From Escherichia coli (GTDB lineage: Bacteria; Pseudomonadota; Gammaproteobacteria; Enterobacterales; Enterobacteriaceae): a DNA stretch of 64,000 nucleotides. Made by a program: the position numbers. Numbering within the stretch: position 1 is the first letter of the stretch; each line of letters opens with the position of its first letter. The stretch is taken from the NCBI RefSeq assembly GCF_030013205.1, contig NZ_CP122648.1; one strand, given 5' to 3'. Of the stretch, positions 1 to 12,000 are shown piece by piece.

Positions 1-3000
1 AGGTTACGCAGTGAAACCGATCGCCGGTCGCTGTGGCAGTAACATCGACCTCGTCAGCCATCATGAAGAGGTGCTGGACAAAACCAGCGGTAAATTTGCC
101 GAGCAGAAAAACATCTATCAGCAACTGTGGTGTTTGCCGAAAGTGGACGGTAAATACATTCAGGTATGTACCTTCACCGTTGGCGGCAACTACGGTGGGA
201 CGTGTTTGCGCGGTGATGAATCACTGGTCATTAAAAAAGAGAGTGATATTGAACCGTTAATTGTGGTGAAAGAGTAATACATGTTGTAGCAACCCTGCAC
301 TGATTATGAAGAATAATCAGTGCAGGGATTAATCAAAATATTCAATATTTATATATTCCAATATTTATTCATTTCATATGTGAATGTATTAACCAGTGGA
401 ATACCTGTGTTTTGATTATTTCTAAAGGTTTTGAATGAATGCTTATTATCTGATACACAAGAAATAACACTCTTTTTATCGTTAAAAAATGATATTTCAC
501 TTTGCCCACGCCGTTAAAGTCACTGATAATGCGTCCGTTCGTAAATTCAAAATGGCGTAATCTAATATATGCTAAATTTATTTGTTGGCCTTGATATATA
601 CACAGGGCTTTTGTTATTACTTGCTCTGGCATTTGTGTTGTTCTACGAAGCAATCAATGGTTTTCATGACACGGCGAATGCGGTGGCAACCGTTATTTAT
701 ACTCGTGCCATGCAGCCACAGCTTGCCGTGGTGATGGCGGCATTTTTTAACTTTTTTGGCGTATTGCTAGGCGGACTTAGCGTTGCCTATGCCATTGTCC
801 ATATGTTGCCAACCGATTTGTTGCTGAATATGGGGTCAACTCACGGCCTGGCGATGGTCTTTTCCATGCTGCTGGCGGCGATTATCTGGAACCTGGGAAC
901 GTGGTTCTTTGGTTTACCGGCCTCCAGTTCGCATACCTTGATTGGTGCGATTATCGGCATCGGTTTAACCAACGCGCTGTTAACCGGCTCATCGGTGATG
1001 GATGCGTTAAACCTGCGTGAAGTGACCAAAATTTTCTCCTCGCTGATTGTTTCCCCTATCGTCGGCCTGGTCATTGCGGGAGGCCTGATATTCCTGCTGC
1101 GCCGCTACTGGAGCGGGACGAAAAAGCGTGACCGTATTCACCGCATTCCGGAAGATCGCAAAAAGAAAAAAGGCAAACGTAAGCCACCATTCTGGACGCG
1201 TATTGCGCTGATTGTTTCCGCTGCGGGCGTGGCGTTTTCGCACGGCGCGAACGACGGGCAGAAAGGGATCGGCCTGGTGATGCTGGTACTGGTGGGGATT
1301 GCCCCTGCTGGCTTCGTCGTCAATATGAATGCGTCCGGCTATGAAATTACCCGTACCCGCGATGCCGTCACCAACTTCGAACACTACCTGCAACAGCATC
1401 CTGAACTGCCGCAGAAGTTGATTGCGATGGAACCTCCATTGCCTGCGGCATCGACTGATGGTACGCAAGTAACGGAGTTTCACTGTCATCCGGCAAATAC
1501 CTTTGATGCGATTGCGTGCGTTAAAACGATGCTGCCAGGCAATATGGAAAGTTACGAGCCGTTAAGCGTGAGTCAGCGCAGCCAGCTGCGCCGCATTATG
1601 CTGTGCATCTCTGATACCTCCGCGAAGCTGGCGAAACTGCCAGGCGTCAGTAAAGAAGACCAGAACCTGCTGAAAAAACTGCGCAGCGATATGTTAAGCA
1701 CCATTGAGTACGCTCCGGTGTGGATCATCATGGCAGTAGCACTGGCGCTCGGCATTGGCACCATGATTGGCTGGCGTCGTGTAGCGATGACCATCGGTGA
1801 GAAGATTGGTAAGCGCGGCATGACGTATGCGCAAGGCATGGCGGCACAAATGACGGCGGCAGTGTCTATCGGCCTTGCCAGTTATATTGGGATGCCCGTC
1901 TCCACAACACACGTCCTCTCGTCTGCGGTAGCAGGGACGATGGTGGTGGACGGCGGTGGGTTACAGCGTAAAACGGTAACCAGCATCCTGATGGCGTGGG
2001 TGTTTACTTTACCGGCGGCGATTTTTCTTTCTGGTGGGTTGTACTGGATAGCATTGCAGTTGATTTAACCTTCCTGAAAATGCCCGGTCCTGGCGATCGG
2101 GCATTTCCATTTTTGACTAGTGATAACCACGCGCGGTCATAAAATCCGTAATCGCTTTTTCTGCATCAACCAGCACCTTTTCCAGTGGCTGATTAGCATC
2201 GATATCAACCAGTTGTGCACCGCCAAAGGTTAACTGTGGCGTTATGGCTATCTTCCTTTCCAGCGATTCTCTTTTGTGGTCAGGCTTACGCGCGCAGGCC
2301 ACGTCCAGGGAGACATTGAGTTTGATGACCAGATCAGGTTTATGGCTCGCCATCCAGTGAAACGCTTTACGTTCCTGGCTTGCCAGCCATGAGACAAACC
2401 GGCCGCCTTCAACGTTAGGCGGGAACACTGTACCATCGTAAGCGCCAGGAATTTGGTCCTGAGGATAACGGTCGGTTAGAACAATTAACCCGCGACGACG
2501 ACAGGCAAGCATATGACGAAAGCGCAGTAAGCGACGGGCGACAAACGCTGTAATTACCAGCGCCGGAACAGGGCCAGGCAATTTTTTTGCTGTTTTTACC
2601 TGATTTCGTTCAATTGTTTTATGTAAGGATTTTCCCATCAACGGTAATTTTGTCACTGCACGACCGACATTTCCGGCCTGTTTTCCTAAATGAACTCTTT
2701 CGGCAGCACCATATTTTTCGACAACGGTAATAAGATGTTCACACACCGTTGACTTGCCTGAACCATCGCTACCAATAACGGCAATTAATGGAGGTGTTAT
2801 TGACTGCATGAATATATCCTTTAATTTAAATATCCATTAAAAATATTTATTTGGTTAATATGTTTTTATGAAAGCGTAATTCAGGTCAATGTCACAATTA
2901 ACCATTGTCACAATAAGGTTGAACGGATATTCTGAGCACGGACCACGTAATATTCAATACATTATTTGCTGCCGGGTTTTTCGTGAATCAACGTAATATG

Positions 3001-9000: not shown

Positions 9001-12000
9001 AAATGGTTGAATGGCAAAGAAACGCTGGAAACATCAGATAATCTTGCCTGGCAATCGGCCTTCACCAGTATGAATCTTGAAGAGTTATCGATGCCGGGAA
9101 ATACTTTTTCTGTCCGTCAACTTAATCATTACATCCATTATTTGCAGGAAACTGGGCAACCCAGCAGCGAATACCGCCTTGCACTGTGGGAAAAACTGGG
9201 ACAACCCATCCTGACCCTGGCGATGATTTTGCTGGCTGTGCCGTTTACCTTTAGTGCCCCGCGTTCGCCTGGGATGGGTAGCCGTCTCGCTGTAGGCGTC
9301 ATCGTGGGCTTACTTACCTGGATCAGCTATCAAATCATGGTCAATCTGGGATTGCTATTTGCGTTGAGCGCACCTGTTACCGCGCTCGGTTTACCGGTAG
9401 CGTTTGTGCTGGTGGCGTTGAGCCTGGTGTATTGGTATGACAGACAACATTAAACCCGCCGTGGCGCAACACCACAGCGGGCTCACATTACTGCTTCAGA
9501 GTAGCGAACGCTTGAATGATGGCATCAATTTGCTCACGACTGTGGGCAGCGTTTACGCTACAGCGCAGCAGCGTGATGCCTGCAGGCGCGGCAGGTGGCA
9601 GGATAAGATTCACATAAACGCCCAGCGAAATAAGCTCGCGCCAGATGCGTAAACCTTCCTCTTTCGAACCGATTATTACTGGCACTACCGGGCTAATATG
9701 TGAACTTAACTCATAACCCAGTTTTTGCAGACCGTCATACAGATGGTTGGCATTATCCATCAGCTTTTGCCGCAACTCTGGTTGTGTAGCAATGGTTCTT
9801 AACGACGAGCGCACGGTCGCAATGCAGGACGGAGAAGGAGAGGCGGTAAAAATATACGGGCGGCTGCCGTAGCGCAGCACTTCCATCGCTTCCGAACCGA
9901 CAGCAAAACCGCCAATCGAGGCCAGACTTTTACTGAAAGTACCAACGATAATATCCACATCATCTTCAACGCCAACGGCTTCAGCCAGTCCGCGCCCCGT
10001 TGCGCCTAACACGCCAAACGAATGCGCTTCATCGACAATCAAATAACCACCGAGACGACGTTTGATATCAACAATTTCCGCCAGCGGCGCAACGTCACCG
10101 AGCATACTGTAGATGCCTTCAACGATGATAATCGCCTCTTTTGCCCGTTCACCGAGGCGAACCATGCGCCGTTCCAGATCTTTAGCATCGTTATGGCGGA
10201 AACGAATAATTTCCGCGCCACCGAGAGAACAGGCGTCATAAATACTGGCGTGGCTGTCGGCATCCAGTAACACCACGGCGTTATGGTCGGCAAGTGCGCT
10301 GATGACGCCTAAATTAGCGGTATAACCGGTTGAAAAAACGATAGCGGTAGGGCGATTAAAAAACTCGGCGATCTCTTTCTCTAACGCCAGATGCGGCGCA
10401 TAACTGCCGTTTGCCATACGAGAACCGGTGGTGCCGGTGCCTTGGGCCGCTAACGCTGCCTGACCTTCGGCGATGGCATCATGATTGAAGGTTAATCCGA
10501 GATAATTATTGGTCCCGGCCAGAATCACTTTTTTATTGCCGATCCGGCCTTCGGTGGCGGAATACACTCCATCAATACAGGTACCAAACGGCGTTAACCC
10601 GTTGTCACTAAATTGCAGTCGCTCGCCAGCAAGACGCGCATATTTATCGTATAGCCCCATTATTTATTCTCCAGCCATGGAAGTAGTGTTTCCATTAATT
10701 GCGCAGGGGTTTTGACATCCAGCAGAATATTAATAGGAATGGAAATATCGAATCTGTCTTCCAGCATCATTAAGAGATCCATCACTTTGATCGACTCCAG
10801 GCCAAGATCGTTGACGAGATCGCTGTCGGGCTTAATTTCCACACCGTTTTCGACCAAATCCTGTAAACAGGAAAGGATGTAATCCATTACTATTTCACGA
10901 TTTACCATAGAAACGTTAACACACCTTTAAACAAGACAATCAAAATAGCCCGTTGCGTAATGCGTGTTCCAGGCTAATCCCGGGAAACCAATTAATATCT
11001 TCAGAAATACGGTTATTACTTGCTGACCAGTCGGCGTGGGTTAATTCACGGATTTTCGAGCGGGTCAGCATAGGTTCTTTACCTGCCAGGCGACTCAACG
11101 TGGTACTGATATCCGCAAGGCAGGTGAGTACCGACAGAGGAATACCAACCATTCGAACGGAACCACAACGGGCGTCGGCGGCAAGCTGTCTTACGCGTTG
11201 CCAGTCATAGCCGCCGGCGACGCCATCGCATAATTCATAGGTTTGCGTCTGTACAGTTTCGGCGCTTAACCACTGCCCCACGGCTTGCGCGAAATCGGTG
11301 ACGTGCAGGAAAGAGAGCTGTGTATCTGGCGCACCAAGTCGTGGCAGTAGGCCGCGCAGCATCCAGTCAAACAGCGGTTTTAACTCTTTATCGCCGGGAC
11401 CATACACGGCTGTCGGGCGAAAAATGCCCAGCGTAATTTCGTCAGCCATTGCGGTCAGTCGTTGTTCGGCGACGTGTTTGGAATTTGCGTACCAGGAGAG
11501 TTCGGGATGGCGCGCCGCCAGCGAAGAGATAAACAGAAAACGTTGGCAAAAGCCGCTCTCTTTTGCCGCTTGCATCAGTCGCAGGCTGCCGTCAACGTTA
11601 CAGCGGGTAAAAATCTCTTCTTTGTGCCCGCGCACTTGCCCGGCGCAATGGACCACCGCGCTGGCTCCGGCAACCAGTTCGCTAAGTGAATGAGTATCTT
11701 CCAGAGAACCGCGCACCCAGGTGAGATTATCATTGACGTGAGCGCGGGCAGTACGCGTCAATGCGCGAACGTGAAAGCCGCGGGCGAGCAGGTTATCGAT
11801 AATATATTTACCGATAAACCCGGTAGCGCCCGTCACCGCGACAGTTTGATTCATGCCAGGGATTCCTGCACATGAAGGCTTGCAGCATAAGCCTTCTGAT
11901 AACGTTTTTTCGCTTCCGCACGGGCAGGCTTGCCGGAGGACGTTCGGGGAATACTGTGGGGCGGCAACAGATCGATAGCCGCGGTCACGCCAAATTCGCT

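What the first reader, a model, noticed from the sequence alone, without database searches (positions are those of the whole stretch)
2117..9453. Possible dedicated export route for the aminolipid: LptF/LptG-like permease pair without an LptB, a YtfJ-like periplasmic protein, and the YghQ flippase-like protein
Convergent with the biosynthetic operon is a plus-strand gene string with overlapping stop/start codons (TGATG at 5879-5883, ATGA at 8374-8377). It encodes a flippase-like polytopic protein, two unknown ORFs, a signal-peptide protein resembling YtfJ, and two LptF/LptG-family permeases. A second LptFG-type pair with no adjacent LptB-like ATPase is unusual and suggests a lipid extraction or transport machine separate from LPS transport. 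Linking it functionally to the neighbouring operon is inference from adjacency.
Basis: partly seen in the sequence, partly recalled or inferred. Interest (0 to 1): 0.7.

Follow-up and report, generated by a model that had tools for sequence, protein, structure and literature searches.

The report
E. coli sphingolipid export genes (LptF2/LptG2)
Next to its sphingolipid-synthesis genes, this E. coli carries a second, divergent copy of the two membrane proteins that normally pull lipopolysaccharide out of the inner membrane, most likely to export the sphingolipid; the idea was published for Caulobacter in 2024-2026 but has not been tested in E. coli.

Summary
The window is E. coli chromosome (pitB-yghTSRQ...glc region, 100% identical to porcine O139:H1 ETEC). 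The described gene string is real and the two stop/start overlaps are exact. One correction: the "two unknown ORFs" are a single 274-aa gene, split here by a 1-nt deletion in a T7 run, and its predicted fold is a CHAD domain.

The LptF/LptG-like pair ("LptF2/LptG2") is only 28-29% identical to canonical LptF/LptG. It keeps the full architecture and the coupling-helix glutamates that dock LptB, but replaces several LPS-contact lysines/arginines with Asn, Asp or Leu.

In all 57 loci from other bacteria recovered with an LptG2-clade pattern, the pair is adjacent. Where enough flank is held, it sits beside bCerS/YghO, and usually beside spt-acpR-cerR-aasR. In 5,426 complete E. coli genomes the pair (4,105) and the spt operon (4,067) occur in nearly equal numbers; K-12 lost both through an IS5 deletion.

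It is also already in the literature (PLoS Pathog 2024; bioRxiv April 2026, which draws the E. coli UTI89 locus). YghQ matches the flippase family proposed in Caulobacter. YtfJ2 is a cysteine-free thioredoxin-fold protein with no evidence of a transport role.

Not described in what I searched: the Enterobacterales-only module of three dTMP-kinase-like proteins, CHAD, YtfJ2 and YghQ.

The parts
2078..2106 (.). Hairpin between convergent pitB (ends 2068) and yghT (ends 2117); left boundary of the cluster
   Evidence: 12-bp stem, terminator-like site
2117..2809 (-). yghT: soluble P-loop protein of the dTMP-kinase superfamily, paralogue 1 of 3; transcribed divergently from the plus-strand string
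   Evidence: ORF and RefSeq annotation. Weak dTMP-kinase matches far below cut-off. 34-35% identical to YghS/YghR, sharing Walker A, DR[YF]PQ and RKPDH motifs. No hydrophobic segment. dN/dS 0.05.
2810..2982 (.). Divergent intergenic region between yghT and yghS; probable promoter region of the plus-strand operon
   Evidence: One sigma-70-like site at 2905-2933, but promoter-like sites in the region are no more frequent than in shuffles. Inference only.
2983..3696 (+). yghS: dTMP-kinase-superfamily P-loop protein, paralogue 2
3728..4486 (+). yghR: dTMP-kinase-superfamily P-loop protein, paralogue 3
4532..5881 (+). Full-length yghQ (449 aa): polytopic MOP/Wzx-type (Polysacc_synt) protein and candidate flippase for the sphingolipid. 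K-12 keeps only a 355-aa remnant cut by IS5.
   Evidence: Pfam PF01943 E=2.7e-8 and PF13440 E=1.3e-7. NCBIfam MOP flippase match far below cut-off. Same family as Caulobacter CC_1166. K-12 truncation. dN/dS 0.03.
5881..6704 (+).
6713..7276 (+). ytfJ2: secreted YtfJ-family protein (RefSeq start 6716), thioredoxin-like fold with no cysteine; role unknown
7307..8377 (+). lptF2: LptF-family permease, paralogue tied to sphingolipid loci
   Evidence: TIGR04407 317 bits against cut-off 230, full length. 29% identical to K-12 LptF. Coupling-helix Glu85 invariant in the clade; R34 and R315 kept; inner-core contacts lost. dN/dS 0.04.
8374..9453 (+). lptG2: LptG-family permease, translationally coupled to lptF2 (ATGA overlap)
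   Evidence: TIGR04408 305 bits against cut-off 240. 28% identical to K-12 LptG. Glu85 invariant. LptG K34/K40/K41/R133 become N/D/D/L, while K62 and R136 stay basic. Clade separate from canonical LptG in 60/60 bootstraps.
9451..9485 (.). Strong hairpin (16-bp stem, 9 G-C pairs) between convergent lptG2 and spt; probable bidirectional terminator
9488..13575 (-). Neighbouring biosynthetic operon aasR (11851-13575), cerR-like reductase (10940-11854), acpR (10660-10908), spt (9488-10660); makes the presumed substrate
   Evidence: RefSeq annotation. E. coli BL21 Spt/AcpR/AasR form 3-oxo-sphinganine (PMC9386255). Present at 80% coverage or more in 4,067 genomes, against 4,105 for lptF2G2.
13947..15089 (+). 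yghO: homologue of the bacterial ceramide synthase (bCerS/aca). It is the gene most constantly found next to lptF2-lptG2 in other bacteria.
   Evidence: 45-61% identical homologue about 1-6 kb (mostly 2-3 kb) upstream of lptF2 in most of the 57 loci. Assigned as aca/cerS in PMC9386255.

Best explanation
The plus-strand string is the export and head-group half of the E. coli sphingolipid locus.

Proposed route:
1. Spt, AcpR, AasR, YghO (bCerS) and the CerR-like reductase build a ceramide-type lipid at the inner membrane.
2. YghQ, a MOP/Wzx-type polytopic protein, moves it to the periplasmic leaflet.
3. LptF2 and LptG2 form a heterodimeric permease that borrows the cell's only LptB ATPase, through the conserved coupling-helix glutamates. 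Like LptB2FG with LPS, it extracts the lipid from the inner membrane for delivery to the outer membrane, probably over the existing Lpt bridge.

Status of each step:
- Shown here: the genes are real, conserved and under purifying selection. The pair is a distinct LptFG paralogue clade physically tied to sphingolipid genes across bacteria. The LptB-docking residues are kept, while several LPS-specific contacts are lost.
- Shown by others, in Caulobacter only: LptF2/G2 form a complex, bind LptB, and are essential only when anionic sphingolipid is made.
- Inferred: the same happens in E. coli; YghQ is the flippase; the downstream route uses LptC/A/D/E.
- Unknown: the roles of YghT/S/R (three dTMP-kinase-like P-loop proteins), the CHAD-fold protein and YtfJ2. 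I suggest head-group (phosphate) chemistry for them. The CHAD gene is broken in this strain.
For: Family and architecture:
- LptF2 and LptG2 exceed NCBIfam equivalog cut-offs over their full length.
- Hydropathy shows 3 + 3 hydrophobic segments flanking a hydrophilic stretch of about 170 residues.
- They are only 29% and 28% identical to K-12 LptF and LptG.

Linkage to sphingolipid genes:
- The same 12-13 gene set occurs in Hafnia (same order) and in Serratia, where the spt operon has moved to the other side.
- The nearest non-enterobacterial relatives lie in spt/bCerS loci.
- In the 57 genome loci found with an LptG2-clade pattern, lptF2-lptG2 are always adjacent. A YghO/bCerS homologue is present in 52 loci. 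The spt-acpR-cerR-aasR operon is complete within the 10-kb flank in 23 loci and partly present in a few more.
- In Nitrosomonadaceae only bCerS is adjacent. PMC9386255 places spt and aca at separate sites in Nitrosomonas eutropha.

E. coli population (5,426 complete genomes):
- lptF2G2 at 80% coverage or more in 4,105; spt operon in 4,067; the whole 12 kb in 4,057.
- Canonical lptFG in 5,425.
- K-12 lost 3'-yghQ through aasR in one IS5-associated deletion.

Phylogeny: context-verified LptG2 sequences exclude canonical E. coli LptG in 60/60 NJ bootstraps for the core group.

Residues:
- LptF E84 and LptG E88 equivalents are invariant in the clade. These glutamates are needed for LptB binding (PMC5082905).
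- LPS-phosphate and core contacts listed in PMC6744409 are partly lost. LptG K34, K40, K41 and R133 become N/D, D/E, D and hydrophobic. LptF K322 and Q248 are lost.
- LptF R33 and K317 and LptG K62 and R136 stay basic.

Other points:
- No LptB, LptA or LptC homologue lies in the locus.
- Purifying selection: dN/dS 0.03-0.23.
- YghQ is PF01943, the family of Caulobacter CC_1166, whose mutants show cofitness with LptF2 mutants.
- Pseudomonas sp. KK4 instead has an MsbA/HepA-like ABC half-transporter directly after spt, so a dedicated flippase candidate recurs in different guises.
- Published experiments and the drawing of the E. coli UTI89 locus.
Against: - Nothing here or in the papers I could search shows that E. 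coli makes or exports a sphingolipid under its native promoters. 3-oxo-sphinganine was seen only after overexpression.
- The E. coli pair has never been tested.
- I could not obtain Caulobacter LptF2/G2 sequences. Orthology to the tested proteins rests on a chain: E. coli to A. vinelandii and P. luteola at 46-55% identity, then to Caulobacter according to PMC11324152.
- The NJ clade that includes the Nitrosomonadaceae sequences is less stable (52/60) and contains representatives of unknown context.
- E. coli has no LptC2, and LptC2 did not co-purify with LptF2/G2 even in Caulobacter, so the periplasmic route is open.
- The head-group genes of the Caulobacter/Pseudomonas-type loci (DAGK-like kinase, CDP-OH transferase, NTP transferases) are absent in Enterobacterales. 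The substrate may therefore differ chemically.
- The CHAD gene upstream of ytfJ2-lptF2-lptG2 is frameshifted in this strain, which could lower expression of the downstream genes.
Confidence: 0.68

Rival explanations
1. The locus is kept but effectively silent in E. coli. LptF2/G2 and the rest are seldom or never expressed, and no sphingolipid reaches the outer membrane under ordinary conditions, so the 'export route' has no present role in most strains.
For: - About a quarter of complete E. coli genomes, including K-12, lack it without known envelope defects.
- Searches of the held literature found no report of native E. coli sphingolipids.
- The CHAD gene is frameshifted in this lineage.
- No promoter signal above shuffles.
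Against: - All genes show dN/dS of 0.03-0.23 within E. coli, and orthologues are intact in Hafnia and Serratia.
- The locus is retained in about 76% of genomes, with biosynthesis and transport genes present in nearly equal numbers.
- The frameshift is confined to at most 78 near-identical genomes.
- Conditional expression is compatible with the best explanation rather than opposed to it.
Confidence: 0.12
2. LptF2/G2 carry a lipid other than the ceramide made next door. Candidates are a head-group-modified or lyso form defined by the Enterobacterales-only module (YghT/S/R, CHAD protein, YtfJ2), or another envelope glycolipid.
For: - The Enterobacterales loci replace the CPG-type head-group genes with a different module.
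- The binding cavity differs from canonical LptFG but keeps one basic cluster.
- CHAD domains bind polyphosphate, and dTMP-kinase-like paralogues can be polyphosphate kinases.
Against: - The pair itself is conserved with bCerS/spt in lineages that lack this module. The common denominator is therefore the ceramide backbone.
- This rival mainly refines what the head group is.
Confidence: 0.1
3. LptF2/G2 are spare or specialised LPS permeases, as the RefSeq name 'LPS export ABC transporter permease' implies, handling LPS or a modified LPS.
For: They pass the NCBIfam LptF/LptG equivalog cut-offs and keep the coupling-helix glutamates and some phosphate-binding residues.
Against: - Only 28-29% identical to canonical LptF/G.
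- Several LPS-contact residues are lost or charge-reversed: LptG K34 becomes N in E. coli and mostly D in the clade, and K40 and K41 become D. K34E is lethal in canonical LptG.
- Canonical lptFG is in 5,425/5,426 genomes, while the second pair is dispensable.
- Constant association with sphingolipid genes rather than LPS genes.
- In Caulobacter their essentiality depends on spt.
Confidence: 0.05
4. The pair is powered by a locus-encoded P-loop protein (YghR/S/T) instead of LptB.
For: Three soluble P-loop proteins of about LptB's size are encoded in the same cluster, and there is no ABC ATPase in the locus.
Against: - YghR/S/T match thymidylate kinases, not ABC ATPases, and only the Walker A region resembles ABC proteins.
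- They are absent from all non-enterobacterial LptF2G2 loci.
- The coupling-helix glutamates that contact LptB are invariant.
- Caulobacter LptF2/G2 bind LptB.
Confidence: 0.03

Closest known systems
Caulobacter crescentus LptF2/LptG2 (CCNA_01214/CCNA_01213 = CC_1156/CC_1155), sphingolipid-locus paralogues of LptFG (Uchendu, Isom & Klein, bioRxiv 10.64898/2026.04.12.717747; proposed earlier in PMC11324152)
   Same: - A second LptF-LptG pair encoded in the sphingolipid locus, with no LptB there.
- PF03739 architecture.
- Accompanied by a Polysacc_synt/MOP-type flippase candidate.
- The preprint's Fig. 2B draws the E. coli UTI89 locus with homologous genes.
- E. coli LptF2/G2 are 46-55% identical to the A. 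vinelandii and P. luteola proteins, which PMC11324152 lists as orthologues of CC_1156/CC_1155.
   Different: - E. coli has no LptC2. The preprint says LptC2 is restricted to Caulobacter.
- The head-group genes differ: no CpgB-type DAGK-like ceramide kinase or CDP-OH transferase, but YghT/S/R, a CHAD protein and YtfJ2 instead.
- No experiment exists for the E. coli proteins.
Canonical LptB2FG(C) LPS extractor of E. coli (PDB 6MHU, 6MI7; Shigella 6S8H/6S8N)
   Same: - Same family, length and domain order.
- F-then-G gene order with overlapping stop/start.
- Conserved coupling-helix Glu (LptF E84, LptG E88).
- Basic residues equivalent to LptF R33 and K317 and LptG K62 and R136.
- Genes not adjacent to lptB.
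   Different: - 28-29% identity.
- LptG K34/K40/K41/R133 and LptF K322/Q248 are replaced, with an acidic 'DD' conserved in the clade.
- Dispensable: absent from about 24% of E. coli genomes.
- Genomic neighbours are sphingolipid genes, not pepA.
Caulobacter CC_1166 (IPR002797 putative sphingolipid flippase) and Wzx-type MOP flippases
   Same: YghQ has PF01943/PF13440 and is polytopic, encoded in the same operon as LptF2G2. CC_1166 mutants show cofitness with LptF2 mutants.
   Different: - Flippase activity is unproven for both.
- YghQ scores far below the NCBIfam MOP flippase cut-off (33 against 273 bits).
- Pseudomonas sp. KK4 carries an MsbA-like ABC protein at that place instead.
CHAD-domain proteins and PPK3-type operons (two dTMP-kinase-like paralogues + CHAD + PPX in Sulfolobus; PMC12995831)
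   Different: - No PPX or SixA here.
- Pfam CHAD is not detected by sequence.
- The YghRST profile matches ordinary thymidylate kinases (E about 4e-5) better than the S. tokodaii cPPK3 homologue (E 0.2).
- The genomic setting is a lipid locus.
- E. coli already has PPK1.
- This is a resemblance only.
YtfJ (b4216) family, TIGR01626/PF09695
   Same: 54% identity, signal peptide, same length; passes the family cut-off.
   Different: It is a second copy embedded in the sphingolipid locus. The family has no known function, so membership explains nothing about mechanism.

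Membership tests
LptF/LptG permease family (PF03739; TIGR04407 LptF, TIGR04408 LptG) | Full-length match to the family profile above the curated cut-off | tested here: met
   LptF2 scores 317.4 bits against 230 (profile 2-346/347). LptG2 scores 304.7 against 240 (2-350/351).
LptF/LptG permease family (PF03739; TIGR04407 LptF, TIGR04408 LptG) | Six TM helices (3+3) around a periplasmic domain of about 150-170 residues | tested here: inconclusive
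   Crude hydropathy gives N- and C-terminal hydrophobic clusters flanking a hydrophilic middle, and the alignments to solved LptF/G cover that middle. No 3-D model of the pair was made, so the beta-jellyroll fold is inferred.
LptF/LptG permease family (PF03739; TIGR04407 LptF, TIGR04408 LptG) | Coupling-helix glutamate (LptF E84, LptG E88) that docks LptB | tested here: met
   E85 in both LptF2 and LptG2, invariant in the 14-15 clade members examined. Role of the residues: PMC5082905.
LptF/LptG permease family (PF03739; TIGR04407 LptF, TIGR04408 LptG) | Function as the LPS exporter (the meaning of the 'equivalog' name): LPS-contact residues conserved | tested here: not met
   Of the charged LPS contacts listed for Shigella LptB2FG, LptG K34, K40, K41 and R133 and LptF K322 and Q248 are replaced. 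Only LptF R33 and K317 and LptG K62 and R136 stay basic. Transport itself is not testable here.
Sphingolipid-locus LptF2/LptG2 (Caulobacter type) | Encoded within or next to spt/acpR/cerR/aasR/bcerS | tested here: met
   lptG2 ends 34 nt from spt, and yghO (bCerS) lies 4.5 kb away. The same association holds in Hafnia, Serratia and most of the 57 other loci.
Sphingolipid-locus LptF2/LptG2 (Caulobacter type) | A second pair in addition to canonical lptFG, with no lptB in the locus | tested here: met
   Canonical lptFG is in 5,425/5,426 E. coli genomes and the second pair in 4,131. There is no LptA/B/C homologue in window 1-22 kb; the only weak ABC hit is at 43.3 kb.
Sphingolipid-locus LptF2/LptG2 (Caulobacter type) | Common descent with the experimentally tested Caulobacter proteins | tested here: inconclusive
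   The E. coli pair clusters with A. vinelandii and P. luteola proteins (46-55% identity; clade 60/60), which PMC11324152 calls orthologues of CC_1156/CC_1155.
Sphingolipid-locus LptF2/LptG2 (Caulobacter type) | F2-G2 complex that binds LptB; deletion tolerated only without (anionic) sphingolipid synthesis | not testable with these tools
   Shown only in Caulobacter.
MOP/Wzx-type flippase (YghQ) | Polysacc_synt domain and polytopic membrane topology | tested here: met
   PF01943 E=2.7e-8 and PF13440 E=1.3e-7. Multiple hydrophobic segments, but the crude scan finds 6 strong ones rather than the expected 12-14. The NCBIfam NF007773 score of 33 bits is far below the 273 cut-off.
YtfJ family (TIGR01626 / PF09695) | Profile match above cut-off; secreted protein of about 185 aa | tested here: met
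   215.8 bits against 151.1. 54% identical to K-12 YtfJ. N-terminal hydrophobic signal-like segment.
LptA/LptC-type periplasmic bridge protein (OstA/beta-jellyroll) in the locus | Homology to LptA/LptC or a beta-jellyroll fold | tested here: not met
CHAD domain (PF05235) | CHAD helical-bundle fold with conserved His and basic residues | tested here: met
PPK3-type polyphosphate kinase (dTMP-kinase-like heteromer) | Membership of the PPK3 branch of the dTMP-kinase superfamily; operon with PPX/SixA/CHAD | tested here: inconclusive
   The YghRST profile hits thymidylate kinases at E about 4e-5, but the S. tokodaii cPPK3 homologue (2plr/5h70) only at E 0.2. CHAD is present; PPX and SixA are absent.

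The most novel reading that the evidence does not exclude
Enterobacterales carry a distinct variant of the bacterial sphingolipid system. The conserved core is Spt-AcpR-CerR-AasR-bCerS plus LptF2G2. In this variant it is joined to a lineage-specific module not described in the papers I could search: three dTMP-kinase-superfamily paralogues (YghT/S/R), a CHAD-fold polyanion-binding protein, a cysteine-free thioredoxin-fold periplasmic protein (YtfJ2) and a MOP flippase (YghQ).

On this reading, about three quarters of E. coli strains, but not K-12, can make and export a still-unidentified, probably phosphate-rich sphingolipid. The dTMPK-like/CHAD set would supply or handle the phosphate, possibly in a PPK3-like, polyphosphate-linked way.
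Probability: 0.3. Interest if true: 0.65.

Novelty: already known. Interest (0 to 1): 0.35.

Why it matters
If the route works in E. coli, most natural isolates put a sphingolipid into an outer membrane that textbooks describe from K-12, which lost the locus through an IS5 deletion. That includes ETEC, UPEC and BL21. It would bear on envelope permeability, polymyxin and detergent tolerance, and host recognition.

It would also mean that LptB, an antibiotic target, serves two different permease pairs in these strains.

For annotation, both pairs are currently named 'LPS export ABC transporter permease LptF/LptG' in RefSeq. That is probably wrong for the second pair.

The finding itself is not new. 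Its value lies in the comparative evidence that the linkage is general, and in pointing to the unstudied enterobacterial accessory module.

Tried and rejected
- A 15-sequence LptG2 alignment (A2) was too diverse for the genome scan. A 7-sequence alignment (A3) worked, but with a single peptide pattern. The 57 loci are therefore a biased sample and contain almost no Enterobacterales or Alphaproteobacteria.
- I could not obtain Caulobacter or Sphingomonas LptF2/G2 sequences with the tools, so there is no direct tree with the tested proteins.
- P0124, the closest non-enterobacterial LptG2, sits on a 1.8-kb contig with no usable context.
- Sequence searches of PDB, Pfam and NCBIfam gave nothing for the 274-aa protein, and PDB sequence search gave nothing for YtfJ2. 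Fold comparison was needed.
- The Rfam scan of 1-16 kb found nothing.
- The promoter and terminator scan was not enriched over shuffles. Only the two large hairpins are worth noting.
- The idea that YghR/S/T could be the missing ATPase was rejected: they are kinase-like rather than ABC-like, and they are absent outside Enterobacterales.
- The idea that YtfJ2 substitutes for LptC/LptA was rejected on fold.
- The CpgB-type ceramide kinase is DAGK-like (PMC10331486) and unrelated to YghR/S/T.
- The PPK3 analogy for YghRST plus CHAD could not be confirmed.
- Literature searches for native E. coli sphingolipids, or for tests of the E. coli transporter genes, found nothing.
- dS against Hafnia is saturated, so only within-E. 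coli dN/dS values are usable.

Full report
**What the window is.** The 12 kb around the finding is 100% identical to chromosomes of porcine E. coli O139:H1/ETEC strains, and some part of it matches in 4,798 of 5,426 complete E. coli genomes. RefSeq annotation of an identical genome gives this order:
- gss, pitB, yghT (minus strand), yghS, yghR;
- a 449-aa 'lipopolysaccharide biosynthesis protein' (full-length YghQ);
- a frameshifted hypothetical gene, a YtfJ family protein, 'lptF' and 'lptG';
- then, convergent, spt, an acyl carrier protein, an NAD-dependent epimerase/dehydratase and a fatty acyl-AMP ligase;
- then yghO, glcC and glcD.

**Checking the observation.** TGATG lies at 5879-5883 and ATGA at 8374-8377, exactly as stated, and the ORFs are as described.

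The 'two unknown ORFs' (5881-6312 and 6231-6704) are one gene. Strains MS6198 and MS 57-2 carry an intact 274/278-aa gene, and the window has T6 where they have T7 or TTTTTCT at about 6227-6232. At most 78 genomes are 99% or more identical over this stretch, and a 98.8% match already has the extra base, so the frameshift is confined to this lineage.

The stated range also holds yghT, yghS and yghR. A 16-bp-stem hairpin at 9451-9485 separates lptG2 from spt, and another at 2078-2106 separates pitB from yghT. Gaps within yghS-yghR-yghQ-CHAD-ytfJ2-lptF2-lptG2 run from -4 to 45 nt, so a seven-gene operon is likely; this is inferred. All genes are under purifying selection within E. coli: dN/dS is 0.03-0.23, and 0.09 for intact CHAD alleles.

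**The permease pair.**
- LptF2 and LptG2 pass the NCBIfam LptF and LptG equivalog cut-offs over their full length. This is why PGAP names them like the canonical genes.
- They are only 29% and 28% identical to K-12 LptF and LptG, and match solved LptF/G chains at E 1e-19 to 1e-42.
- Canonical lptFG is in 5,425/5,426 genomes and the second pair in 4,131.
- The coupling-helix glutamates (LptF E84, LptG E88), which are required for LptB binding (PMC5082905), are E85 in both paralogues and invariant in 14-15 clade members.
- The charged LPS contacts listed for Shigella LptB2FG (PMC6744409) are only partly kept. LptF R33 and K317 and LptG K62 and R136 remain basic. LptG K34, K40, K41 and R133 become N/D, D/E, D and a hydrophobic residue. 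LptF K322 and Q248 are lost.

I read this as a transporter that still plugs into LptB but has a remodelled substrate pocket. That reading is an inference from alignments.

**Is the link to the biosynthetic operon more than adjacency?** Yes.
- LptG2 orthologues of 63-75% identity occur across Enterobacterales: E. albertii, Hafnia, Serratia, Citrobacter, Shimwellia, Sodalis, Erwinia, Pantoea, Pluralibacter and Klebsiella indica.
- In Hafnia the whole cluster has the E. coli order, followed by a phosphopantetheinyl transferase. In Serratia the aasR-cerR-acpR-spt operon sits on the other side of yghT, and the set still stays together.
- A search of 1.84 billion representative proteins shows a steep drop after a few 44-51% relatives. 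Of the three looked up, one (45%) lies in a metagenomic spt-acpR-cerR-aasR/bCerS locus. One more distant (37%) lies next to a bCerS homologue and CPG-type head-group genes on a contig that ends before any spt. The third (51%) sits on a contig too short to give context.
- A scan of one genome per species with an LptG2-clade alignment returned 57 loci, from Nitrococcus, Pseudomonas, Azotobacter, Stutzerimonas, Methyloversatilis, Arhodomonas, Nitrosomonadaceae and Escherichia.
- tblastn with the E. coli proteins shows lptF2-lptG2 adjacent in every one of these loci. A YghO/bCerS homologue lies about 1-6 kb (mostly 2-3 kb) upstream in 52 of the 57. The spt operon is complete within the 10-kb flank in 23 loci and partly present in a few more, and is absent from the Nitrosomonadaceae loci. 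PMC9386255 places spt and aca at separate sites in Nitrosomonas eutropha.
- In an NJ tree the context-verified LptG2 sequences separate from canonical E. coli LptG. Support is 60/60 bootstraps for the core group and 52/60 when all are included.
- Within E. coli, lptF2G2 (4,105 genomes), the spt operon (4,067) and the whole 12 kb (4,057) occur in nearly equal numbers. K-12 lost 3'-yghQ through aasR in one IS5-associated deletion.

**What is already published.**
- PMC11324152 (2024) proposed that Caulobacter CC_1168, CC_1156 and CC_1155 are LptC2, LptF2 and LptG2. It also proposed that CC_1166, an IPR002797 protein, is a flippase for phosphosphingolipids. It lists orthologues in A. vinelandii and P. 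luteola.
- The April 2026 preprint by Uchendu, Isom and Klein shows four things. The three Caulobacter genes can be deleted only in spt or cpgB deletion backgrounds. LptF2 and LptG2 co-purify. Both bind the sole LptB. The E. coli UTI89 locus contains homologous genes (Fig. 2B).
- PMC9386255 shows that E. coli BL21 Spt, AcpR and AasR form 3-oxo-sphinganine when overexpressed, and assigns yghO as the N-acyltransferase.
- I found no paper that tests the E. coli transport genes or reports native E. coli sphingolipids.

**The other genes of the string.**
- YghQ matches PF01943 and PF13440, the family of CC_1166.
- The spt operon of Pseudomonas sp. KK4 ends in an MsbA/HepA-like ABC half-transporter instead. 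Weaker ABC-ATPase-like hits in several other loci were not examined. Different lineages thus pair LptF2G2 with different candidate flippases, which fits a flip-then-extract route.
- YghT, YghS and YghR are three paralogues, 33-41% identical to each other, of the dTMP-kinase superfamily with intact motifs.
- None of these six proteins has a credible match in the non-enterobacterial LptF2G2 loci; the only hit is a 27% YghQ match in Arhodomonas (L061). Two of those loci that were annotated carry NTP-transferases, a CDP-OH phosphotransferase, a DAGK-like kinase, Tam41-like and metallophosphoesterase genes, and the Pseudomonas KK4 locus a similar set. This is the CPG-type head-group set.
- These six proteins are therefore a lineage-specific module, not core transport parts.
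- CHAD domains bind polyphosphate. Archaeal PPK3 consists of two dTMP-kinase-like paralogues encoded with a CHAD protein. That is a resemblance I could not confirm.

**Verdict.** The feature is real. It is already in the literature, including a drawing of the E. coli locus.

Three qualifications apply. The route probably shares LptB with LPS export rather than being fully separate. The missing adjacent LptB is not unusual, because canonical lptFG also lies far from lptB. YtfJ2 has no support as a transport component.

What remains open is whether E. coli actually makes and exports the lipid, what its head group is, and what the enterobacterial kinase-like/CHAD/YtfJ2 module does.

Noticed in passing
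window 5881-6704 (frameshift at about 6227-6232): The gene between yghQ and ytfJ2 is broken by loss of one T from a T7 run in this O139:H1 lineage. It is intact in most other E. coli. Its product models as a CHAD (polyphosphate-binding type) domain, although Pfam does not detect it by sequence.
   Followed up: yes
window 2117-4486 and 5881-6704: Three paralogous dTMP-kinase-superfamily proteins (YghT/S/R) are encoded with a CHAD protein. This resembles archaeal PPK3 polyphosphate-kinase operons (two dTMPK-like paralogues + CHAD + PPX; PMC12995831). The profile comparison was inconclusive.
   Followed up: partly
window 6713-7276: YtfJ2, like canonical YtfJ, has a thioredoxin-like fold but no cysteine. 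An invariant basic motif, IAGRxSAKxxN, sits at a strand-loop-helix junction. By my recollection of the fold, not checked by superposition, that is where thiol-disulfide oxidoreductases carry CXXC. This suggests anion binding rather than redox chemistry.
   Followed up: partly
window 7307-9453; RefSeq records such as NZ_AP027440.1: PGAP gives the second pair the same names as the essential genes ('LPS export ABC transporter permease LptF/LptG') because they exceed the equivalog cut-offs. About 4,100 E. coli genomes therefore carry two gene pairs with identical names but probably different substrates.
   Followed up: yes
L005 (K-12 NC_000913.3 3130146-3132408): In K-12, IS5 (insH9) replaces everything from the 3' part of yghQ to aasR. 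K-12 'yghQ' is a 355-aa remnant, so phenotypes reported for K-12 yghQ mutants (for example the chlorhexidine study PMC8170033) concern a truncated gene without its partners.
   Followed up: partly
L022 557-2284 (Pseudomonas sp. KK4); weaker or partial ABC-ATPase hits in L039, L060, L069, L020, L054, L064, L027, L055, L068: An MsbA/HepA-like ABC half-transporter is encoded directly after spt in L022. It is a candidate dedicated flippase, in the role YghQ is proposed to play in Enterobacterales. The hits in the other loci were not examined.
   Followed up: partly
L017 and L056, about 19.3-20.5 kb: In two MAG contigs labelled Klebsiella pneumoniae (their LptF2/G2 are only 32-35% identical to E. 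coli's, so the label is doubtful), canonical lptA-lptB (LptB 64-66% identical to E. coli's) lies about 9 kb downstream of lptG2.
   Followed up: no
proteins P0024, P0302, P0409: Database entries fuse parts of these genes with others: GspC+LptG2, GspM+CHAD protein, YtfJ+LptF. This hints at deletions in some E. coli that join the nearby type II secretion cluster to this locus, or at gene-call artefacts.
   Followed up: no
L070 (K-12 4438708-4447891): Canonical ytfJ lies about 3 kb from tamA-tamB, an envelope translocation and assembly module. This is possibly coincidental.
   Followed up: no
L008/L009 17126-17854 (Hafnia): A 4'-phosphopantetheinyl transferase gene follows yghO in the Hafnia cluster, presumably to activate the dedicated AcpR. 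The E. coli window has glcC at that position.
   Followed up: no
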